A stretch of DNA of 59,160 nucleotides, filler included. It is 7 parts of 7 records of this genome, joined end to end, with 100 filler letters (N's around TTAATTAATTAA, not from the genome) between each part and the next. Parts side by side here need not be neighbours in the genome. Positions count along the whole stretch, not along the records: positions 32,060 to 39,617 come from SRR31147125_41537; 6 more parts are not named here. One strand, 5' to 3'. The notes under the pieces are model-generated. The model was not told the origin of the DNA and ran no database searches. It worked only from the letters and a program-made list of their open reading frames with translations. A program made the position numbers and the translations under genes. Positions 13,049 to 52,480 of the stretch are shown here, piece by piece (the first letter of the stretch is position 1; each line of letters opens with the position of its first letter).

Positions 13049-13148
13049 NNNNNNNNNNNNNNNNNNNNNNNNNNNNNNNNNNNNNNNNNNNNTTAATTAA
13101 TTAANNNNNNNNNNNNNNNNNNNNNNNNNNNNNNNNNNNNNNNNNNNN
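13049..13148. other. Artificial contig spacer
   Basis: N-run, TTAATTAATTAA (stops in all frames), N-run; composition changes across it. Confidence 0.98.
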
Positions 13149-18395: not shown

Positions 18396-18495
18396 NNNNN
18401 NNNNNNNNNNNNNNNNNNNNNNNNNNNNNNNNNNNNNNNTTAATTAATTAANNNNNNNNNNNNNNNNNNNNNNNNNNNNNNNNNNNNNNNNNNNN
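18396..18495. other. Artificial contig spacer
   Basis: N-run, TTAATTAATTAA, N-run. Confidence 0.98.
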
Positions 18496-26217: not shown

Positions 26218-26317
26218 NNNNNNNNNNNNNNNNNNNNNNNNNNNNNNNNNNNNNNNNNNNNTTAATTAATTAANNNNNNNNNNNNNNNNNNNNNNNNNNN
26301 NNNNNNNNNNNNNNNNN
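26218..26317. other. Artificial contig spacer
   Basis: N-run, TTAATTAATTAA, N-run. Confidence 0.98.
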
Positions 26318-31959: not shown

Positions 31960-32059
31960 NNNNNNNNNNNNNNNNNNNNNNNNNNNNNNNNNNNNNNNNN
32001 NNNTTAATTAATTAANNNNNNNNNNNNNNNNNNNNNNNNNNNNNNNNNNNNNNNNNNNN
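31960..32059. other. Artificial contig spacer
   Basis: N-run, TTAATTAATTAA, N-run. Confidence 0.98.
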
Positions 32060-32164
32060 TTTTTCTCTTGTAGCAGCTTCATTTCCCTCATAAGAGACTT
32101 GTTCAATCTCGAAGCATCGATCTAAATCGGATTCAGCAACATTACGAATTATATAATCACTCAT
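32060..32164 (-). CDS. GNAT acetyltransferase N-terminus (truncated by contig end; not in ORF track)
   Basis: Manual translation MSDYIIRNVAESDLDRCFEIEQVSYEGNEAATREK; GAAAGG RBS. Confidence 0.65.
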
Positions 32165-32176
32165 TTTAAACCTTTC

Positions 32177-32351
32177 ACATAACGCACAGCTTCACCGGCC
32201 GGAGGATGAATAAAAATGCCTTTTGAAGATATTGAATTAAATGTTTCACAAGTTTTCCAATAAATACTGTTGCCCGCCCGATCCTGAATGAAAGCCGTGA
32301 TTGAACGAAGCCGCGCGGCTTTTTACGTCGGCTGTATTAACTTTGTTAGAT
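32177..32351 (-). mobile_element. Degenerate integron attC remnants
   Basis: Minus strand: ATCTAAC-AAAGTTAATACAGCCGACGTAAAAAGCCGCGCGGCT (R''-side half), and GGTGAAGCTGTGC-GTTATGT just before the GNAT RBS (R'-side half). Confidence 0.55.
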
Positions 32352-32794
32352 TTAATTTCTAAAGATGAATTTTCAGCTTTTACAATATCAATAATTCCGT
32401 GATTTATAAGAAGAGCAGCCCCATTTTCGTAATCCAGAAAGCCATATAAGGTCGGTGAAACTCGCACTAACCGTCCTTTAACAGGTTTCCTGCTACTTCC
32501 AGAAAAATGAACCTCATGGGTATTTGGCCTGTTTGAACTTAGTAATCGCTCTGCTTTCCTAATCCCCTTATCTAATGCCTCGCTGCCTGCAATATTAAAA
32601 AGGATTATTAGGAAAACGAAAAATACTGTGATCCCATACTTTTTGGAATATTCGCTAAATCGAATTATAGCTTTACTGAATAATTCAATTTTTTTACCCA
32701 TTAAAAATAACAAAACGTAAACAGCTGCAAGGATCAATACTAAATAGACGGCTAGAGTTGGGGATTGACCTGACATTACTGTTATAAACCCATC
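32246..32794 (-). pseudogene. Cassette-like membrane protein ORF, 5' end replaced by a palindrome, reading through its broken attC
   Basis: Two TM helices; 'SNKVNTADVKSRAA' is encoded by the attC half; the called start lies inside the palindrome. Confidence 0.5.
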
Positions 32795-32835
32795 GTAAGT
32801 CATGACCACCGGCATAGCCGGTGGTCATGACTTAC
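32795..32835. repeat. Perfect 41-bp palindrome with IS200/IS605-type hairpin core
   Basis: GTAAGTCATGACCACCGGC-ATA-GCCGGTGGTCATGACTTAC. Confidence 0.75.
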
Positions 32836-32890
32836 ATTCACCCCTGTAAATTTTCTGTGGAAGTAGTATTGGATAAAAAAATGACGATTA

Positions 32891-33658
32891 CTACCCCCAG
32901 AGTTCCTGAACCAATTCACGACTCAGATTCAAATATTTGTGTTGCATATTCAAATCATAACAGAAAACTTCCAAGGTAATCGTGCTGTTGTAACCGATTG
33001 CCTTTAATGAATTCACTGCCTTTTTCCAATCCACGGTTCCGATACCCAAGGGCATATGATCATCGGATCTGGATCGGTTATCAGAAAAATGAACGTGCTG
33101 AATGTGTTCTCCCAATTCTTTACAAAACAGCTCATGATCATCGACACCGAAGTTTGAATGCCCAAAATCGAGATGCAGTTTTAAACCCGGCACTTCCGCC
33201 AGTAAGGTCTTAAAAATAGAAACGCGGTCAAAAGGGGCTTTATAGTTTTCAAGTACCAATGAGAGCCCATGTGATGCAGCCATTTCAACAATGGGTTGTA
33301 ATGTCTCTATATGGAATGAGACCAGATCTTTTTTCATAGCCGGCGGAGCAAAATAACAGGGATGAATATTCATAATCTTCGCCCCTAAGGCGGAAAATAT
33401 TTCTGCACATCGCTCCAGTTCCTGCAAGGAAGCGTCTCGGATTCCCTGGATTGGGTACGCATATGGAAGGCAAGGGTCTGTATGCCCCGTGATGAATAGA
33501 CCATAGGAATCGAGGATCGGCTTCAATTTAGCAATATCAACGCTGATGGCCTCAGGCCCTTCGATGGTCAAATCCAGAAAGTCGAAACCGACTTTGCCGC
33601 AAAACTCTGCCTCATCATAGACTGTTTTTGACGGGTTATTCATTATCCCTATTTTCAT
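32891..33658 (-). CDS. Sugar-phosphate isomerase/epimerase (xylose isomerase-like/AP endonuclease 2 TIM barrel)
   Basis: LVLEN, LHLDFGH, HVHFSDN..SDDHMPLGIG, TLEV metal ligands; start MKIG after AAGAGGG. Confidence 0.88.
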   Translation of the reverse strand: MKIGIMNNPSKTVYDEAEFCGKVGFDFLDLTIEGPEAISVDIAKLKPILDSYGLFITGHTDPCLPYAYPIQGIRDASLQELERCAEIFSALGAKIMNIHPCYFAPPAMKKDLVSFHIETLQPIVEMAASHGLSLVLENYKAPFDRVSIFKTLLAEVPGLKLHLDFGHSNFGVDDHELFCKELGEHIQHVHFSDNRSRSDDHMPLGIGTVDWKKAVNSLKAIGYNSTITLEVFCYDLNMQHKYLNLSRELVQELWG

Positions 33659-33866
33659 GGCACCCTCTTTCATTTGATGGATACTCGGTTCGATCCGAAT
33701 ATTACTAATTCCCCACGAAACACATTGTTGTGTTTCAACGGCTTCGATCGGCTTGTCGACAACTTCGAAATTGTTTCCCTATGTTACTGGATGATGACCT
33801 GAAACGCGAGGAAAACTTCATTCATAACGCTCTTTAATCCACTCAGCCCTCCCTTTGAATCAACAA

Positions 33867-35450
33867 TCAACTATTTTTCGCAGTGCGAATTCTATTCAAT
33901 AATTGCTGTTGCCGTCTCTTTGCACCAATGGGATCATTAAGTACATTGTTCATTTTCGGGGCAGTGATAAACGGAACCAGCATGGCGGCTTCGGATAGAG
34001 TCAGCTTTTTATAATCATGCCCGAAATAAGCCATTGAAGCCGCTTTCAAGCCAAAAGCGCCGTTTCCGAAATAGATCATGTCCAAATACATCTCCAGAAT
34101 TTCATTTTTCGTGAAGTTCATTTCGAGCACTTTAGCTATTTTCAACTCCTGAAACTTGTGTTTCAATGTCTTCTGCCGATCTTGGATGAACTGTTTTGCC
34201 AATTGCTGGGTAATCGTGGAACCTCCCTGCCGGTACAGGGGACCTCCCAAACAATATGATTTTAAATTTACCCCTGCTGCACGAATAACGGAGGTGATGG
34301 CCAGCCCCCTATGGTTGTAGAAATTTGAATCTTCGTTTATCAGCAGGGCGGTGATGAAAGGTTGGGGAACCCCTTCAATATCAATTCTTGCTGCTTCAGG
34401 AATTTTCTGCTGATATTCACGCTTGACTTCGGCAAGAATTTCTTTCATTGTTGCGTCATTGGGATTGCCGTAGAGCAACGTGATACCGGCAGTAGCAACA
34501 ACGGCAACGGCAATGAGCAAACCGATCAGCGCTTTTCTTTTCAAAGTGTTCGTGTGCATCAACATTTCGATTCTCTTCCGCAGCTCACTTTTTCGAATCC
34601 ACCCCTGGGTCAACAGCGTCTCGCGGGGATCACCGCCGCCGGCTGCAATGACTGCGGCAGTCTGGATCAGCAGTCGTGTATATTCGAACTTATCAATCTT
34701 GCGGATGGTACGTTGATCACATTCCAATTCCCTCAGAAAGACGCCGCGCCGCCGCAGAATATGCGAAATGGGATTGAACCAGAACATGTAAGCAAGCACT
34801 GTTTCCAGAAGAGACCAGAAGTGATGATGACAACGAAAGTGATTCACCTCATGGCAAATAATCACCTTTTTTTCAAATGCGGTCATGCTCGCCGGAATGA
34901 AAATGCTTTTTCGGATAAACCCTGCCGAAAAGGGAGTCTTGACCCCAATGGATTCGACCAGGTGGTAGCCGCCGCTGATGATCGAAAGGACACCGGTCTG
35001 TTTTAGACGGTGTATACGCCGCATCTGCAAGCGATACCGAATGGCGAATATTAGAAGTCCCAATATGGAAAATTGTCCGATCAGATCGACAAAATAGAAG
35101 CTGACATCCTGTATGATCGGTCGGATATGCTTTACACTGCCCACCCGGCGTGAATCGCTCGCCCCTCCCATATATGGCCCAGGGACGGCTGTTTGGTTGA
35201 GTATCTCTGGCTGATGACGCGACTCTTTTTTCGGGATATGGGCTCCCAAATCATGATCAGCACTGTAGGACATCAGCACCATGGCAACCGGCAGACTCAC
35301 TGCAAGAAGGGTAAAGAGCTTGTGAAAGAGGATGATTGACCTCAGCGATACCTTTTTAAGGCTTAGGCCTAAATAGAGTCCCAACAGAGGGAGCAGAAAA
35401 ATTGATGAAACCAGGTAACTTGAAAAGAACAGTTCATGGAATTCTTTCAT
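33867..35450 (-). CDS. BlaR1/MecR1-type M56 metallopeptidase fused to a GT51 peptidoglycan transglycosylase domain
   Basis: TM helices, TPFSAG, HEVNH, FWFNP, RELECD, LRKRIE, TM, then EDSNFYNHRG, GGSTITQQLAK, KNEILEMYL, IYFGNG, AAS..YFG, LSEAAML. Confidence 0.9.
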   Translation of the reverse strand: MKEFHELFFSSYLVSSIFLLPLLGLYLGLSLKKVSLRSIILFHKLFTLLAVSLPVAMVLMSYSADHDLGAHIPKKESRHQPEILNQTAVPGPYMGGASDSRRVGSVKHIRPIIQDVSFYFVDLIGQFSILGLLIFAIRYRLQMRRIHRLKQTGVLSIISGGYHLVESIGVKTPFSAGFIRKSIFIPASMTAFEKKVIICHEVNHFRCHHHFWSLLETVLAYMFWFNPISHILRRRGVFLRELECDQRTIRKIDKFEYTRLLIQTAAVIAAGGGDPRETLLTQGWIRKSELRKRIEMLMHTNTLKRKALIGLLIAVAVVATAGITLLYGNPNDATMKEILAEVKREYQQKIPEAARIDIEGVPQPFITALLINEDSNFYNHRGLAITSVIRAAGVNLKSYCLGGPLYRQGGSTITQQLAKQFIQDRQKTLKHKFQELKIAKVLEMNFTKNEILEMYLDMIYFGNGAFGLKAASMAYFGHDYKKLTLSEAAMLVPFITAPKMNNVLNDPIGAKRRQQQLLNRIRTAKNS

Positions 35451-35842
35451 TTGTCTTCCTCCTCGCGTTCCTTAGCGGATATGAGCTGTTTAAGCTCTTC
35501 CAGCTCACCGGGACTGAAACTGTTGGAATTCACAAAATACTGGGCAAAAGAAAGTTTGTTTCCGGAAAAAATTCGGTCAATGATCGTATTGAGTCTCTTT
35601 TTGGTAATCTTTTCCTTAGAGATTTTTGGAAAATAAAGATATTTTTTTCCGGCCGGACGATGTCCGACAATGCCCTTTTGTTCCATTTTCTGCAGCGTTT
35701 TTAGAACGGTGGTATATCCGGGGCGTTTTCTCTCCGGCCAGTTTTCCAAAATGGCGTTGACGCTCGATATATCGCCCTGCTCCCAGATTTGTTGCAGGAT
35801 CAATAATTCCAGTTCCGTAACGGCAATATTTTTTTCAGTCAT
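35447..35842 (-). CDS. BlaI/MecI/CopY family repressor
   Basis: ELLILQQIW, YTTVLKTLQKMEQKGIV, KYLYFP, FSGN, EELEELKQLI; 4-nt overlap with the M56 gene. Confidence 0.93.
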   Translation of the reverse strand: MTEKNIAVTELELLILQQIWEQGDISSVNAILENWPERKRPGYTTVLKTLQKMEQKGIVGHRPAGKKYLYFPKISKEKITKKRLNTIIDRIFSGNKLSFAQYFVNSNSFSPGELEELKQLISAKEREEEDK

Positions 35843-35921
35843 TCAATCCTCCCAAACATGGATTAGCCATCCTGCCCCAAGCGGCAGGCGTTAAAATTCA
35901 TATGTCACCATACGGCCATAG

Positions 35922-35971
35922 TTATTACGACAATCGTCGTATGTCAAGCATTATTACGACATTTGTCGTAT
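35922..35971 (-). promoter_or_regulatory. Tandem BlaI-type palindromic operators flanking a -35 TTGACA
   Basis: TACGAC-AATC-GTCGTA (35926-35941) and TACGAC-ATTT-GTCGTA (35955-35970); TTGACA on the minus strand at 35942-35947. Confidence 0.8.
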
Positions 35972-36298
35972 AATAAACCATAGGACATTGCGAGGATTTG
36001 CCCCACAATTAATTATAAAAAATGACCGAGCAACCTTTGCATCGCTCCACAAAGTAAAAGCACCTGGAACAAGTCAGTCCCAGCTTGGACGACCTCAACA
36101 CCTTCCAGACCCTTGCTGAGAAAAGGTTCGCTTCGGTGGTGTGGCGCAGTTCAGGGAGTCGATAATGGAATCGTGATGAGAACAAAAGTGAACGTAAATA
36201 AAAAACTGTGATGGGGCCATCTCGCAGAGAAGGCAAGCCAGAGAGATGGTTGAGGCAAGTGTCGATTTCAATTCAAAGGACGGAGCGGTCCACCGCAT

Positions 36299-36922
36299 TC
36301 ATCTTTTCTCGATGGTTGCCGAGTACAATCCAGCACAAATTAAGCTCAACCCGCCTGTAAGATTGAAGGCTTTTCTGAATTGTAATGATTTAAATAGCTC
36401 ACTTGTTATTGATGCGAGCAAAGAGTAGCTAATGACATTGAATAAAGCCAATAACAAAAAAGTTATTGTCAGCACTCCGAATTGAAAAAGCATGTGATGT
36501 TCAGGGCTTACAAATTGGGGCATGAAAGCAGAGAAGAAAATAATGCCTTTAGGGTTTAACGCATTTACAAGCAAAACCTCTCTGAATACTTCTGTTGAGT
36601 TATATTTTGATACAGAAAGGTGTTGAAATCTCAATTTTGAAGTTGAGAGCATCATCTTTACGCCAAGATACACCAAGTAAACAGCTCCAACATATTTGAT
36701 AACTATAAATGCAGTTGAAAAAATGGACAGCACCGCGCTTAATCCCAGTAGCGAGAGAATAATGCAAATAGCGTCGCCTAATATCACACCAAGTGATAAC
36801 GGTAAACTCGCCTTCCTACCATGATTTAATGACTGTCCCACAACATAAATGATTGTTGGACCTGGAATTACAAGAATCAAAGTTGCTGTAACCGTAAATG
36901 TCAGCCATACGTCTAGAGACAT
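36299..36922 (-). CDS. LysE/RhtB family amino-acid exporter
   Basis: PGP motif, KYVGAVYLVYLG, LNPKGIIFF.AF.PQF; GGAGG RBS. Confidence 0.92.
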   Translation of the reverse strand: MSLDVWLTFTVTATLILVIPGPTIIYVVGQSLNHGRKASLPLSLGVILGDAICIILSLLGLSAVLSIFSTAFIVIKYVGAVYLVYLGVKMMLSTSKLRFQHLSVSKYNSTEVFREVLLVNALNPKGIIFFSAFMPQFVSPEHHMLFQFGVLTITFLLLALFNVISYSLLASITSELFKSLQFRKAFNLTGGLSLICAGLYSATIEKR

Positions 36923-36965
36923 GATTTTCCTCCAATATGATAATGTTGGGCCTTGATTATTACGA

Positions 36966-37095
36966 CTATTCAGTAAACCCTCTTTCCGACATGGATTCCC
37001 GATCGATGAAATATGCCATACCTGTTTTCATTTTTCTAAAACCTTCTTTTCCTGGGGCGGCATACAAAATCACATTCACATCTTTGTAGTTTTGT
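36966..37095 (-). pseudogene. C-terminal remnant of a GNAT acetyltransferase
   Basis: VNVILYAAPGKEGF-RKMKTGMA..GFTE, lacking the usual YxKxGF segment and any N-terminal half. Confidence 0.5.
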
Positions 37096-37310
37096 AAGGA
37101 TTTTTTGAAATCACCTTGTGAAGTAAAAATTATCCGGATGCGCTCGAACCCTATTCTACACTTGACCCCATTCAGCACGGCCGGGATATAAGTTGAGAAT
37201 GCAATTGGATGTCCTTTGGAACTATGCTAATAAGATGCTTCGATTCGAGCTAAAATGAGGCTTCGAATAATTGAACAACTTCAGCATGACATCATCCGTA
37301 AAGAGAGAAC

Positions 37311-38213
37311 ATGACGCATAAAAACATATACGAAATATTAAATCATTCATTTCCGGATCTCATTCAAAAATTAAAAAATATCATAGAGAAATCAGAATTA
37401 GAATATTCTTTAAGATCCGATTCCGACAGTTTCTTGTGGGAACATACGGTTTATGTCAGTGGCATGGCCATGACCCTCTCAAAAAAAGAGGGCATTGATC
37501 CGCGCCTTCCCGTTCTAACGGCTTTATTCCACGACTGCGGCAAATTCATGGATGGCGCTTATCATGAAAATGATATCCCGGAAGAAAAAAACGGTGCGGA
37601 TATTGCCGAAACAATACTCAAAGAAGAGGGATGCCCGGTGGCAGATATAAATGTCGTGGTGAAAGCGCTGCTCGGACTCTACAACGATCAAAAAGGGAAA
37701 AGCGCCATCTCTCAAATTGTCCACGACGCCGATTTTTTAGTGAAATTTGGTTACATGGGATTTGCCAACTTTTTTGAAAAATCGGTCCTTCGAGGGATGA
37801 CCATGAGCCACAGCATTCTGAAAAAACTCAGCAAAGAGCTTACCTATGCCGCCTCCCTTGAAAGCAATATGTTTACGGCTTCCGGAAAAAAGATGGCCCG
37901 CTCAAAAGCTCAAATTACCAGAATGTTGTTTGAAAAATATTTGCAAGAGCTCAAAGAGGCCGGCATTTCAACCTATGAAATCAAAGAGATGGATTTCAAC
38001 TGCTGTGAAGGACCGGACGACGTGATCCCCCTCGTTCTTGTGTTGCCAACCAGTTGCACCCATTGCGGATCAGACATGGATATCGCCTTTGGGCGGGACA
38101 GGGGAATCAAATGTGAAAAGTTAATGGTCGCCATCGGCTGCAAGGGTTGCAACGAGGAAGAGGCGTATGACTTTTCATTCTGCCTGCCGGAGCTGGTCAA
38201 ATCCATAAATTGA
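37311..38213 (+). CDS. HD-domain phosphohydrolase with C-terminal Cys-rich (zinc-ribbon-like) domain
   Basis: WEH...LFHDCGK...HDADFL; C-terminal CTHC, C, CKGC, FSFCLPE. Confidence 0.8.
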   Translation: MTHKNIYEILNHSFPDLIQKLKNIIEKSELEYSLRSDSDSFLWEHTVYVSGMAMTLSKKEGIDPRLPVLTALFHDCGKFMDGAYHENDIPEEKNGADIAETILKEEGCPVADINVVVKALLGLYNDQKGKSAISQIVHDADFLVKFGYMGFANFFEKSVLRGMTMSHSILKKLSKELTYAASLESNMFTASGKKMARSKAQITRMLFEKYLQELKEAGISTYEIKEMDFNCCEGPDDVIPLVLVLPTSCTHCGSDMDIAFGRDRGIKCEKLMVAIGCKGCNEEEAYDFSFCLPELVKSIN

Positions 38214-38886
38214 TCATATACCAGATCATGGGAAGAAAAATTGCCGGAATCATGCTGCCGATACGGATTTTGACAATGCCGAGAACGTTAAACCCAATAG
38301 CCATGATCAAAACACCGCCCACAGCAGACATTTGACTCACCACTTCCGGCTGCAAAAAGGGTTTGATCAGCACTGCAGCCATGGTAATGCTCCCTTGATA
38401 AATAAAGATGGGCAGACTGGAGAACAGGACGCCGAAGCCGAACGAAGAAGTGAGCATAATGGCAATGATTCCGTCAAGTGTGGACTTGGCAAACAGGGTC
38501 TGATGATTGCCGGTAAGACCACTCTCAAGGGCTCCAACAATACCCATGGACCCCACACCGAAAATCAGTGTGGCGGTAATGAATCCTTTATAAAACCCAC
38601 CTTCTTCTTCCTGTTTTGCAAATTTTTTTTCAAGGGCGCGCCCAAAAGCCTCCAACCCCTCTTCAATACGCATGGCCTCCCCCAGAAAACTTCCAAGAGC
38701 CAGACTGAAAATGACAATGAGCAGCGCATCACTTCCCAAAGCCCCTTTCATGCCGATAACAACAACGGCAAGGGAAAGCGCCTGCATGATCGTGGTATTA
38801 TACTTTTCCGGAATCCCGCCCCTGAAGATCAGTCCAACCAGACTACCGGAAATGATGGCGATGGCATTCACAACGGTTCCAAGCAA
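38197..38886 (-). CDS. DUF554 (YqgA/YdfK-like) membrane protein
   Basis: MLGTVVN, VGSMGIVG, KSTLDG, YQGSIT, GGVLI.AIG. Confidence 0.88.
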   Translation of the reverse strand: MLGTVVNAIAIISGSLVGLIFRGGIPEKYNTTIMQALSLAVVVIGMKGALGSDALLIVIFSLALGSFLGEAMRIEEGLEAFGRALEKKFAKQEEEGGFYKGFITATLIFGVGSMGIVGALESGLTGNHQTLFAKSTLDGIIAIMLTSSFGFGVLFSSLPIFIYQGSITMAAVLIKPFLQPEVVSQMSAVGGVLIMAIGFNVLGIVKIRIGSMIPAIFLPMIWYMINLWI

Positions 38887-38891
38887 CTTTT

Positions 38892-39617
38892 TTACCTGTA
38901 ATCTTTATAATCTATGCCGTATTTTCCTGCTTTATAGGAAAACTTTCTCACGGTAGTGTCGATCTGTTTTGCAGCGTTTTTGATGTTTCCCCTGGTGTTC
39001 TTTAAGGAATCGATGAGCATCTCCTTTTCCAGGTTGGCCACCGCTTCCTCAAGGGTAATGGGAGCAAGGGTATGGGACTCTTTTCCGGTCTGAAGGCTGG
39101 GAGGAAGATGATAGCTGTGGATGGCCCCTTCGTTACAAAGAAGAATCGCTCGTTCGATACAGTTTTCAAGCTCCCGCACATTCCCCGGCCAATGATAGCC
39201 CATGAGCATGTCTATGGCCGGTGTGGAGAGGCGCTTTACATCCTTGAAGTGCTCTTTTGCATATTTTTCAAGAAAGAAATCAGCCAACAAAATGATATCG
39301 GTCTTCCGCATGCGAAGGCTCGGCATGTAAATGGGAAAGACATTGAGCCGGAAATAGAGATCGTCCCTGAACCCCCTTTTTCCACCATCTCTTCGAGATT
39401 GGCGTTGGTTGCGGCAATGATCCGGACATCCGCCTTGATGGTTTGGTGTCCGCCTACCCGCTCGAACTCCTTTTCCTGGAGAACACGAAGCAGCTTCACC
39501 TGTACCCCCAGATCCATGGTGCCGATCTCATCTAAGAAGAGTGTTCCCTGATGGGCCAGCTCGAACTTCCCCTTTTTCTGATGAAGTGCACCGGTAAAGG
39601 CCCCTTTTTCATGGCCA
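38892..39617 (-). CDS. Sigma54-dependent (NifA-like) activator, 5' truncated, one frameshift in a G-run
   Basis: [43 protein letters not shown] near 39372-39376 is one base short of FRDDLYFRL. Confidence 0.88.
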
Positions 39618-39717
39618 NNNNNNNNNNNNNNNNNNNNNNNNNNNNNNNNNNNNNNNNNNNNTTAATTAATTAANNNNNNNNNNNNNNNNNNNNNNNNNNN
39701 NNNNNNNNNNNNNNNNN
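39618..39717. other. Artificial contig spacer
   Basis: N-run, TTAATTAATTAA, N-run. Confidence 0.98.
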
Positions 39718-52380: not shown

Positions 52381-52480
52381 NNNNNNNNNNNNNNNNNNNN
52401 NNNNNNNNNNNNNNNNNNNNNNNNTTAATTAATTAANNNNNNNNNNNNNNNNNNNNNNNNNNNNNNNNNNNNNNNNNNNN
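52381..52480. other. Artificial contig spacer
   Basis: N-run, TTAATTAATTAA, N-run. Confidence 0.98.

What the first reader, a model, noticed from the sequence alone, without database searches (positions are those of the whole stretch)
33867..35971. BlaI-BlaR1-like signalling module with a peptidoglycan transglycosylase (GT51) domain as the sensor
Seen: operators, then blaI, then (4-nt overlap) a gene with BlaR1 topology: N-terminal TMs, M56 protease (HEVNH..RELECD), last TM, extracytoplasmic domain. That domain carries GT51 motifs. Motif 1 EDSNFYNHRG keeps the catalytic Glu and motif 2 GGSTITQQLAK is intact; motif 3 RKxxE reads HKFQE and motif 4 YLN reads YLD. The protein stops with no SxxK transpeptidase domain, and no beta-lactamase is nearby on this contig. 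Known: BlaR1/MecR1 sense beta-lactams through a penicillin-binding domain and trigger BlaI/MecI cleavage; GT51 binds lipid II and is the moenomycin target. Inference: the other PBP half has been recruited as the sensor, giving a receptor for moenomycin-type phosphoglycolipids, lipid II or nascent glycan. The induced GT51 domain might also act as a decoy or bypass enzyme. I know of no characterised example, but I could not search.
Basis: partly seen in the sequence, partly recalled or inferred. Interest (0 to 1): 0.85.

Follow-up and report, generated by a model that had tools for sequence, protein, structure and literature searches.

The report
BlaR-type receptor with transglycosylase sensor domain
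A repressor gene is paired with a membrane protease of the antibiotic-sensing BlaR1 type that carries a cell-wall-polymerising (GT51) domain where BlaR1 has its penicillin sensor; this probably makes a rare, untested switch that reports on cell-wall building blocks.

Summary
On a 7.5-kb contig (window 32060-39617) a BlaI-type repressor gene (35447-35842, minus strand) overlaps by 4 nt a 527-aa gene (33867-35450). That gene encodes an M56 protease module with four hydrophobic segments, followed by a complete GT51 domain and no transpeptidase domain.

- **Promoter:** two exact TACGAC-N4-GTCGTA dyads flank a TTGACA hexamer upstream. The same layout recurs in two metagenome loci.
- **Not truncated or chimeric:** 56 cluster representatives share the architecture. 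53 are 507-557 aa, one is a 439-aa fragment, and two carry an extra C-terminal domain. None has a transpeptidase domain.
- **Hosts:** named members are Pseudoteredinibacter, Anaerotruncus rubiinfantis and a Cellulosilyticaceae MAG. The window's contig looks Desulfobacteraceae-like.
- **blaI linkage:** blaI lies directly upstream in 4 of 4 loci examined.
- **New evidence:** the protease zinc-site residues are invariant (56/56). At least one of the two GT51 catalytic glutamates is replaced, mostly by Gln, in 18/56, against 0/202 ordinary GT51 domains. Substrate-binding residues stay invariant.

This favours a ligand-binding (sensor) role over an obligatory enzymatic one. The ligand (lipid II, nascent glycan or moenomycin-like compounds) and the regulon are unknown. 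I found no paper describing this architecture. The scan did not find this protein before on other DNA; it had noted a related M56 receptor with a lytic-transglycosylase domain. Verdict: a real, uncharacterised new variant of the BlaIR family, interest about 0.65.

The parts
35955..35970 (-). Operator 1, dyad TACGACAAATGTCGTA, upstream of the -35-like hexamer
   Evidence: exact match. The same position and half-sites occur in L081 and L082.
35942..35947 (-). -35-like hexamer TTGACA between the two operators; a -10 element was not clearly identified
   Evidence: TTGACA in L081 and TTGACT in L082 at the same place. The consensus promoter scan did not call this promoter.
35926..35941 (-). Operator 2, dyad TACGACGATTGTCGTA, abutting the -35-like hexamer
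   Evidence: L082 has TACGACCATTGTCGTA; L081 has GACGACTTTTGTCGTA.
35447..35842 (-). blaI-like repressor gene, 131 aa, winged-helix Penicillinase_R family; GGAGG lies 6 nt before the ATG
   Evidence: (PF03965, E 8.4e-24). Aligns over its whole length with MecI/BlaI structures 1okr and 1sd4. The MecI N101-F102 position aligns with Y-F.
33867..35450 (-). M56-GT51 receptor gene, 527 aa; its start overlaps the blaI stop by 4 nt
34461..35450 (-). Residues 1-330: BlaR1-type membrane and zinc-protease module. Hydrophobic segments at about 13-31, 39-57, 119-137 and 308-326; poorly conserved loop 58-118.
   Evidence: hydropathy. (profile matches S. aureus BlaR1 8exs residues 9-337, E 2.5e-12). (8exr_A, TMt 0.55). 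(loop 65-110 has pLDDT below 50).
34839..34853 (-). HEVNH (H200, E201, H204), zinc-binding HExxH motif
   Evidence: H, E and H are each 56/56.
34716..34730 (-). ELECD (E241...D245), the ExxxD motif that holds the third zinc ligand
   Evidence: E241, C244 and D245 are each 56/56. Motif role taken from PMC9834060 (passages).
33888..34394 (-). Residues 353-521: GT51 peptidoglycan glycosyltransferase domain. Both catalytic Glu are present (E373, E435), with unusual R431H and N457D.
   Evidence: PF00912, 156.9 bits. (3nb6: TMt 0.82, rmsd 1.9 A over 167 columns). (R in 214/215 and N in 212/215 comparison domains).
32891..33673 (-). Downstream xylose-isomerase-like TIM-barrel gene, 193 nt after the receptor gene. 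It may be co-transcribed; whether it belongs to the unit is uncertain.
   Evidence: No terminator-like site on the minus strand in the gap. The gene is not conserved downstream in L082 or G318.

Best explanation
This is a self-repressed two-gene proteolytic switch of the BlaI/BlaR family. BlaI binds two dyads that bracket the operon's own promoter. The membrane protein has the BlaR1 layout: four membrane segments, a cytoplasm-facing HExxH/ExxxD zinc protease, then a last membrane helix that leads outside. Where BlaR1 has a penicillin-binding domain, this protein has a GT51 domain. That domain sits on the outer face of the cytoplasmic membrane exactly as in a monofunctional transglycosylase. 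I propose that the GT51 domain works mainly as a ligand-binding sensor for lipid II, the lipid-linked growing glycan chain, or a mimic of it such as a phosphoglycolipid antibiotic. In this model, occupancy of its cleft shifts the receptor to the protease-active state, BlaI is cut, and the operon is derepressed, together with co-transcribed or distant BlaI targets that I could not see. Shown here: the architecture, its conservation, the blaI linkage, the operators, and the relaxed catalytic but conserved binding residues. Inferred: membrane sidedness, ligand identity, BlaI cleavage and the output genes.
For: Architecture and motifs. Fold: the GT51 part matches the Aquifex PBP1a GT domain (3nb6, TMt 0.82) and S. 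aureus MGT with its membrane helix (3vms/3vmq); the N-terminal part matches BlaR1 (8exr_A TMt 0.55; the profile hits 8exs over residues 13-329, E 2.5e-12). Four hydrophobic segments with K/R-rich loops on the protease side. Conservation: 33 clusters at 90% identity and 26 full-length representatives among the best 150 of 1.84 billion, none with a transpeptidase domain. blaI lies directly upstream in 4 of 4 loci with upstream DNA (window, L081, L082, G318/L099). The same operator-promoter layout occurs in 3 of 3 loci of the main clade. Protease site 56/56 invariant. At least one catalytic Glu of GT51 is lost in 18/56 against 0/202 ordinary GT51 domains (Fisher p about 1e-13, not corrected for relatedness), with at least 5-8 separate changes on the tree. 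D374, G382, Q416, K432 and Y455 stay 56/56. Related M56 modules are fused to other peptidoglycan-binding enzyme domains: M23 in P0157, P0176 and P0219, and SLT in L100 and L101, each with blaI upstream. BlaR1 precedent for signalling by occupancy of an enzyme-derived sensor cleft: PMC9834060 (passages).
Against: In the window's own subclade both Glu are kept in 20 of 22 rows, and the window's protein keeps them, so many members may be active enzymes. Conserved binding residues are expected for an enzyme as well as for a sensor. The sister M23 and SLT domains keep their catalytic motifs, so 'an enzyme domain tethered to a protease' is not excluded. No ligand, BlaI cleavage or expression data exist. 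The regulon is unseen because no genome is held for the window. In the one complete genome examined (G318) an operator-like pattern was found only at the operon's own promoter, so no separate output gene is known. Only 4 loci with context were examined. The controls and family rows are related sequences, so the p-value overstates independence.
Confidence: 0.5

Rival explanations
1. The GT51 domain is the output, not the input. It is an active auxiliary peptidoglycan polymerase whose level is set by the BlaI/BlaR switch, comparable to PBP2a under MecI/MecR1. The signal is perceived elsewhere, for example by the membrane module or the 58-118 loop.
For: The operators are seen only at the operon's own promoter, so the operon's own products are the only visible output. 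Both catalytic Glu are kept in the window's protein and in 38/56 members. The last membrane helix plus the GT51 domain align with a full-length monofunctional transglycosylase (3vmq residues 29-247).
Against: 18/56 members lack a catalytic Glu against 0/202 ordinary GT51 domains, including whole subclades and the G318 and L082 proteins. The window's protein has R431H and N457D at positions that are R in 214/215 and N in 212/215 comparison domains. It scores below NCBI's MtgA equivalog cutoff (106 against 182.65 bits).
Confidence: 0.2
2. The GT51 domain is a targeting or anchoring module. It docks the protease at sites of wall synthesis or on glycan strands without gating it. The switch is controlled by another cue or only by receptor turnover.
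For: Binding residues are conserved while catalysis is dispensable. Two members add a further C-terminal domain (TonB_C or ExbD-like; precomputed Pfam, position), which suggests the GT51 domain can be an internal module. Sister fusions carry other wall-binding domains.
Against: There is no direct evidence. In the characterised BlaR1 the C-terminal domain gates the protease (PMC9834060). The strict 1:1 pairing with blaI (4/4 loci) fits a signalling receptor.
Confidence: 0.15
3. This is specifically a moenomycin-type antibiotic receptor with a resistance output.
For: The domain superposes on GT51 structures solved with moenomycin (3nb6, 3d3h, 6ftb). Motif 1, 2 and 3 residues are largely conserved. 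Clostridial members exist without an outer membrane (Anaerotruncus, Cellulosilyticaceae).
Against: Named or inferred hosts of the main clade are diderm bacteria (Pseudoteredinibacter; a Desulfamplus-like neighbour gene). No resistance gene is conserved beside the operon. The architecture was found on 0 of 625 matching plasmid records. The window's protein changes the motif 3 Arg.
Confidence: 0.1
4. Artefact: a chimeric assembly, or a class A PBP truncated after its GT51 domain.
For: The window is a set of short contigs with very different G+C. The only run that holds the stretch is probably the source sample.
Against: 56 cluster representatives from many assemblies share the same join; 53 are 507-557 aa, one is a 439-aa fragment and two are 638 and 642 aa. 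Among the named members are five Anaerotruncus RefSeq proteins. The Logan assembly gives one 6574-nt contig across the stretch with no differences. No member has PF00905.
Confidence: 0.02

Closest known systems
BlaR1/BlaI and MecR1/MecI of Staphylococcus aureus and Bacillus licheniformis
   Same: An M56 HExxH/ExxxD zinc protease in a four-segment membrane module. The motifs have nearly the same numbering: H200/E201/H204 and E241/D245 here, against H201EXXH and E242XXXD in BlaR1 (PMC9834060). Also shared: an extracytoplasmic enzyme-derived C-terminal domain, an adjacent BlaI-type repressor, dyad operators at the promoter, and a Phe at the position aligned with the P1' residue of BlaI cleavage.
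   Different: The sensor is a GT51 glycosyltransferase domain, not a penicillin-binding domain (no PF00905). It scores 49 bits against the 400-bit cutoff of NCBI's blaR1_generic model. No beta-lactamase or PBP2a-type target gene is nearby. The operator half-site is TACGAC. The aligned P1 residue is Tyr, not Asn.
Non-canonical BlaIR-family systems (CenIR of C. difficile; BlaIR of mycobacteria; PvmSR of P. aeruginosa)
   Same: A BlaI-type repressor with an M56 protease that lacks the penicillin-binding domain, and an unknown signal. The CenIR paper reports about 15,000 M56 proteins in 254 architectures, about 6% with a transpeptidase domain, and about 96% near a BlaI homolog (PMC13492132, passages; preprint 10.64898/2026.08.03.742534, passages).
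   Different: In those systems the C-terminal part is short, disordered or absent. Here it is a well-defined domain with known ligands. Transgly is not among the nine architectures with 100 or more entries named in the passages I read.
Monofunctional peptidoglycan glycosyltransferases (MtgA/MGT) and the GT51 module of class A PBPs
   Same: The Pfam Transgly domain, the fold (3nb6 TMt 0.82; 3vms TMt 0.69), and a membrane helix directly before the domain (3vmq aligns with residues 300-521). The window's protein keeps both catalytic Glu.
   Different: It is fused behind a BlaR-type protease. It falls below the MtgA (106 against 182.65) and PBP1A-family (172 against 509) cutoffs. It has R431H and N457D. 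A third of the family has lost a catalytic Glu.
M56 receptors with other peptidoglycan-enzyme domains (M56-M23, M56-SLT)
   Same: An M56 module with a C-terminal cell-wall enzyme domain, and blaI upstream in L100 and L101. M56-M23: P0157, P0176, P0219. M56-SLT: L100, L101. M56-M23 is mentioned as an architecture in PMC9662197 (passages) and PMC13492132 (passages). M56 with an MltD-like lytic transglycosylase is in earlier scan note e1-4979669.
   Different: Those domains cut peptidoglycan, whereas GT51 builds it and binds the lipid-linked precursor. None of them is characterised either.

Membership tests
BlaR1/MecR1 beta-lactam sensor-transducers | M56 zinc-protease motifs HExxH and ExxxD | tested here: met
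   H200, E201, H204, E241 and D245 are present and 56/56 invariant in the family. PF05569 scores 74.4 bits against a cutoff of 31.
BlaR1/MecR1 beta-lactam sensor-transducers | Four-segment membrane topology with a cytoplasmic protease and an extracytoplasmic C-terminal domain | tested here: met
   Four hydrophobic segments. The profile aligns with BlaR1 8exs residues 9-337. Sidedness is inferred from charge bias and from BlaR1, not measured.
BlaR1/MecR1 beta-lactam sensor-transducers | C-terminal penicillin-binding (acyl-serine) sensor domain | tested here: not met
   No PF00905 or other penicillin-binding family matches; the C-terminal domain is PF00912. blaR1_generic scores 49 bits against a cutoff of 400.
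BlaR1/MecR1 beta-lactam sensor-transducers | Ligand-induced cleavage of the cognate repressor | not testable with these tools
   Needs an immunoblot or a reconstituted assay.
BlaIR-family regulatory pairs in the wide sense (M56 protease plus BlaI/MecI/CopY-type repressor) | Adjacent, co-oriented repressor and M56 genes | tested here: met
   4-nt overlap in the window. blaI is directly upstream in L081, L082 and G318.
BlaI/MecI repressors | Penicillinase_R winged-helix fold and dyad operators at the regulated promoter | tested here: met
   PF03965 scores 84.6 bits against a cutoff of 22.6. Two exact dyads at the promoter, conserved in 3 loci. NCBI's specific BlaI/MecI/CopY models are all below cutoff. 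No Cys-rich CopY tail is visible in the sequence.
GT51 peptidoglycan glycosyltransferases | Transgly domain and fold | tested here: met
   PF00912 scores 156.9 bits against a cutoff of 27. Foldseek 3nb6: TMt 0.82, rmsd 1.9 A.
GT51 peptidoglycan glycosyltransferases | Full catalytic motif set: two Glu, the motif 3 Arg-Lys, and the motif 4 YLN (motif names recalled from the literature) | tested here: inconclusive
   E373 and E435 are present, but R431 is His and N457 is Asp. These positions are R in 214/215 and N in 212/215 comparison domains. 18/56 family members lack a Glu.
GT51 peptidoglycan glycosyltransferases | Polymerisation of lipid II | not testable with these tools
   Needs an enzyme assay.
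MtgA (monofunctional biosynthetic transglycosylase, TIGR02070) | Score above NCBI's equivalog cutoff | tested here: not met
   106 bits against 182.65.
Class A penicillin-binding proteins | GT51 module followed by a transpeptidase module | tested here: not met
   The protein ends 6 residues after the Transgly match. PBP_1a_fam scores 172 bits against 509. 0 of 56 relatives carry PF00905.

The most novel reading that the evidence does not exclude
The GT51 domain has been turned into a receptor for the lipid-linked peptidoglycan precursor or growing glycan chain. This switch would then let a cell read the state of its own wall polymerisation, or the presence of compounds that occupy the GT51 cleft, and answer by proteolysis of a repressor. 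It would be the first signalling role for a GT51 domain. It would also be one member of a wider set of BlaR-type receptors whose sensors are recruited wall enzymes (transpeptidase, GT51, SLT, M23).
Probability: 0.4. Interest if true: 0.8.

Novelty: new variant of a known kind. Interest (0 to 1): 0.65.

Why it matters
Most BlaR homologs lack a penicillin-binding domain, and no signal is known for any of them (PMC13492132, passages). This variant is unusual because its sensor candidate is a domain whose ligands are well known (lipid II, nascent glycan, moenomycin) and for which assays and crystal structures exist, so the question 'what do non-canonical BlaR proteins sense?' becomes directly testable. 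Nature also supplies Glu-to-Gln versions that should bind without turnover. One member sits in a named species with RefSeq records, Anaerotruncus rubiinfantis. If the sensor reading holds, it would add a new way for bacteria to monitor wall synthesis. It might also serve as a specific reporter for compounds that hit the transglycosylase step.

Tried and rejected
- **Whole genome:** none is held for the window, so the regulon could not be searched there.
- **Metagenome scan:** run with the M56 part, it gave only 2 loci.
- **Region search:** residues 1-340 gave 16 hits: 14 already-known M56-GT51 proteins, plus two weak M56 hits at 55-61 bits (one M56 alone, one with TonB_C). It was no use as a census of sister architectures.
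- **Genome samples:** Gammaproteobacteria, 0 of 400 scored genomes with M56-GT51. Clostridia, 1 of 399 scored. Order of G318, 1 of 102, the same genome. Five loose handles, 0 of 5. These are samples, not proof of absence.
- **Plasmids:** 0 of 625 matching records cover 80% or more of the protein.
- **Sequencing runs:** only the probable source sample holds the stretch, and no RNA holder is listed. Contigs cannot show expression or read-level chimerism.
- **Complex prediction:** GT51 domain (330-527) against the 58-118 loop, to test a BlaR1-like loop-in-cleft arrangement. Verdict 'no answer' (score 0.01); this is no evidence either way.
- **Intergenic fold:** the 193-nt gap after the receptor gene has z = -0.22 and no terminator was found, so co-transcription with the TIM-barrel gene stays open.
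- **G318 operator pattern:** derived from only two arms, it found no further site beyond chance. This is a weak test.
- **-10 element:** I could not identify one convincingly beside the conserved TTGACA.
- **Literature searches:** no paper on an M56-GT51 protein turned up.
Full report
**What is there.** The window is several contigs joined by N blocks with very different G+C. The finding lies on the piece 32060-39617.
- On the minus strand a 131-aa ORF (35447..35842) overlaps by 4 nt a 527-aa ORF (33867..35450).
- Pfam gives Penicillinase_R for the first ORF (E 8.4e-24). For the second it gives Peptidase_M56 (residues 127-297, E 1.1e-20) plus Transgly/GT51 (residues 353-521, E 4.8e-46), and no transpeptidase family.
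- Upstream of blaI lie two exact dyads, TACGACAAATGTCGTA (35970-35955) and TACGACGATTGTCGTA (35941-35926), on either side of a TTGACA hexamer (35947-35942).
- These are the only two exact matches to TACGACNNNNGTCGTA in the window.
- No beta-lactamase family is present on the contig.

**Not an artefact and not a truncated PBP.**
- A search of 5.8 billion clustered proteins found 33 clusters with the same two Pfam domains, 29-61% identical. Thirty are 517-553 aa, one is a 439-aa fragment, and two (638 and 642 aa) carry an extra domain (ExbD-like or TonB_C). The alignment places that extra domain at the C-terminus.
- A filter-free profile search of 1.84 billion representatives listed 26 full-length representatives of 507-642 aa among its best 150. 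Every longer hit matched through the GT51 part only (domains checked for ten of them).
- None of the 56 proteins I assembled has a transpeptidase domain.
- Logan's assembly of the only run that holds the stretch (probably the source sample) gives one 6574-nt contig across it without a difference.

**Anatomy.**
- Hydropathy shows four hydrophobic segments at about 13-31, 39-57, 119-137 and 308-326. The long loop that holds the protease motifs is K/R-rich.
- The family profile aligns with S. aureus BlaR1 (8exs) over residues 13-329 (E 2.5e-12). It aligns with the membrane-anchored S. aureus monofunctional transglycosylase (3vmq) over residues 300-521. The last membrane helix therefore serves both as the BlaR 'TM4' and as the anchor of an MtgA-like enzyme.
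- An AlphaFold2 model (mean pLDDT 74.9, pTM 0.51; loop 65-110 below 50) matches the Aquifex aeolicus GT51 domain (3nb6: TMt 0.82, rmsd 1.9 A, 40% identity). Its N-terminal part matches the BlaR1 membrane/protease domain (8exr_A, TMt 0.55).
- The zinc-site numbering nearly coincides with BlaR1's H201EXXH and E242XXXD (PMC9834060, passages).
- BlaI aligns end to end with MecI and BlaI structures. The residues aligned with the MecI N101-F102 cleavage site are Y-F.

**Linkage and operators.**
- A metagenome scan with the M56 part gave two loci. In both, blaI lies directly upstream: a 4-nt overlap in L081 and a 2-nt gap in L082.
- Both carry the same layout: dyad, 7-8 nt, TTGACA or TTGACT, dyad.
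- In a complete clostridial genome (G318) a more distant M56-GT51 gene (512 aa) again follows a blaI-like gene. It is itself followed, 4 nt later, by a membrane-anchored GDPD phosphodiesterase gene.
- blaI linkage therefore holds in 4 of 4 loci examined.

**Who has it.**
- Named members are uncultured Pseudoteredinibacter sp. (Gammaproteobacteria), Anaerotruncus rubiinfantis and a Cellulosilyticaceae MAG (Clostridia). RefSeq calls them 'transglycosylase domain-containing protein'.
- The best named relatives of the window's DUF554 neighbour are Desulfamplus (77% identity) and other Desulfobacteraceae.
- The architecture is rare and patchy: 1 of 399 Clostridia genomes, 1 of 102 in that genome's order, 0 of 400 Gammaproteobacteria sampled, and 0 of 625 matching plasmid records.
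- On a tree of GT51 domains the main clade (50 rows, support 92) and the clostridial group (5 rows, support 95) are each one side of a branch and are not sisters. A single origin is not excluded.

**The new evidence on function.** I aligned 56 M56-GT51 proteins.

| Residues | M56-GT51 family | Ordinary GT51 domains (PBPs, MGT-like) |
|---|---|---|
| Protease H200, E201, H204, E241, C244, D245 | 56/56 each | not applicable |
| First catalytic Glu (E373) | E 49, Q 5, N 1, K 1 | E in all |
| Second catalytic Glu (E435) | E 44, Q 9, M/I/T 1 each | E or D in all |
| At least one Glu lost | 18/56 | 0/202 |
| D374, G382, Q416, K432, Y455 | 56/56 each | near-invariant |

- The controls are 202 domains from 199 proteins among my hits. 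The Fisher p is about 1e-13, but the rows are related, so it overstates independence.
- A FastTree of 55 rows (the fragment P0023 was left out) needs 8 changes of state, of which 5 are forced by well-supported branches. Whole subclades are Glu-less.
- The L082 protein (second Glu is Gln) and the G318 protein (first Glu is Gln) add two more cases.
- The window's own protein keeps both Glu. It has His for the motif 3 Arg (R in 214/215 comparison domains) and Asp for the motif 4 Asn (N in 212/215).
- Overall, the protease is always kept, the substrate-binding pocket is kept, and catalysis is dispensable. That is what a binding or sensing domain would show.
- The caveat is that in the window's subclade 20 of 22 rows keep both Glu, so many members may also polymerise.

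**Sister architectures.**
- Among the profile hits, three proteins match the N-terminal M56 module and carry a Peptidase_M23 domain instead of GT51 (P0157, P0176, P0219).
- In the Gammaproteobacteria sample, two blaI-linked M56 proteins carry an SLT lytic-transglycosylase domain (L100, L101) and one carries ankyrin repeats (L102).
- The M23 and SLT examples keep their catalytic motifs.

**Output.**
- The only operators seen are at the operon's own promoter. In G318 an operator-like pattern occurs exactly only there, which is a weak test.
- Downstream genes differ between loci: a TIM-barrel gene in the window, with a 193-nt gap and no terminator found; a degenerate second GT51-like gene in L082; and the GDPD gene in G318.
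- The output is therefore either the operon's own products, co-transcribed neighbours, or distant targets that I could not search.

**Mechanism and rivals.**
- Best reading (about 0.5): a BlaR1-like allosteric switch. Occupancy of the GT51 cleft by lipid II, the lipid-linked glycan chain or a mimic activates the cytoplasmic protease, which cuts BlaI and derepresses the autoregulated operon.
- Rivals: the GT51 domain is the induced enzyme and not the sensor (0.2); it is a targeting module (0.15); it is specifically a moenomycin receptor (0.1, a sub-case of the best reading); it is an artefact (0.02).

**Relation to what is known.**
- It is not a member of the BlaR1/MecR1 beta-lactam sensors: there is no penicillin-binding domain, and it scores 49 against a 400-bit cutoff.
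- It is not MtgA (106 against 182.65) and not a class A PBP (172 against 509).
- It does belong to the wide BlaIR family.
- That most M56 proteins lack a transpeptidase domain is in print: about 15,000 proteins, 254 architectures, about 6% with a transpeptidase domain, about 96% near BlaI (PMC13492132, passages). Transgly is not among the nine common architectures named there.
- Six literature searches found no paper on an M56-GT51 protein.

**Limits.** Only four loci with context were examined. No genome is held for the window. The taxon is inferred from one neighbour gene. Sidedness, ligand, cleavage and regulon are all inferred. The statistics are not phylogenetically corrected.

Noticed in passing
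window 1-59160 (N blocks at 13049-13148, 18396-18495, 26218-26317, 31960-32059, 39618-39717, 52381-52480): The window is seven pieces joined by paired 44-N blocks. G+C swings between about 0.30 and 0.58 from piece to piece, so the pieces may not all come from one organism.
   Followed up: partly
L082 4094-4690 (+), 107 nt downstream of the M56-GT51 gene: A second, small membrane-anchored GT51-like ORF (Pfam Transgly, E 1.3e-20; cut by the contig end). Both catalytic Glu positions read Gln (QDPNFWNHKG, RKIKQ) and motif 2 is degenerate. It looks like a non-catalytic GT51 paralog in the same operon-like unit.
   Followed up: partly
L099 5920-6882 (-) in genome G318: A GDPD-family phosphodiesterase with an N-terminal membrane segment starts 4 nt after the clostridial M56-GT51 gene. 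That receptor's first catalytic Glu is Gln. The GDPD gene may be the regulated output there.
   Followed up: partly
L100 782-2769 and L101 836-2775 (Gammaproteobacteria genomes G593, G751): blaI-like genes abut M56 proteins (534 and 518 aa) whose C-terminal domain is an SLT lytic transglycosylase with the catalytic E-S kept. This is the same theme as earlier scan note e1-4979669.
   Followed up: partly
L102 724-2617 (-) in genome G648: A blaI-like gene is followed by a canonical-looking M56 protein (Pfam E 9e-59) that ends in ankyrin repeats. This is an odd sensor candidate.
   Followed up: no
P0004 (638 aa) and P0019 (642 aa): Two close relatives add an ExbD-like or a TonB_C domain behind the GT51 domain. 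Both have Gln for the first catalytic Glu.
   Followed up: partly
window 32891-33673 (-) and 32246-32815 (-): Downstream of the receptor gene lie two genes. One is a xylose-isomerase-like TIM-barrel protein whose weak best NCBIfam hit is the cobamide-remodelling phosphodiesterase CbiR (57 bits against a cutoff of 105). The other is a 189-aa membrane protein with no family match.
   Followed up: partly
window 36028-36083 (-): Two terminator-like hairpins lie between the upstream LysE gene (36299-36922) and the operators. blaI and the receptor gene therefore probably form their own transcription unit.
   Followed up: no
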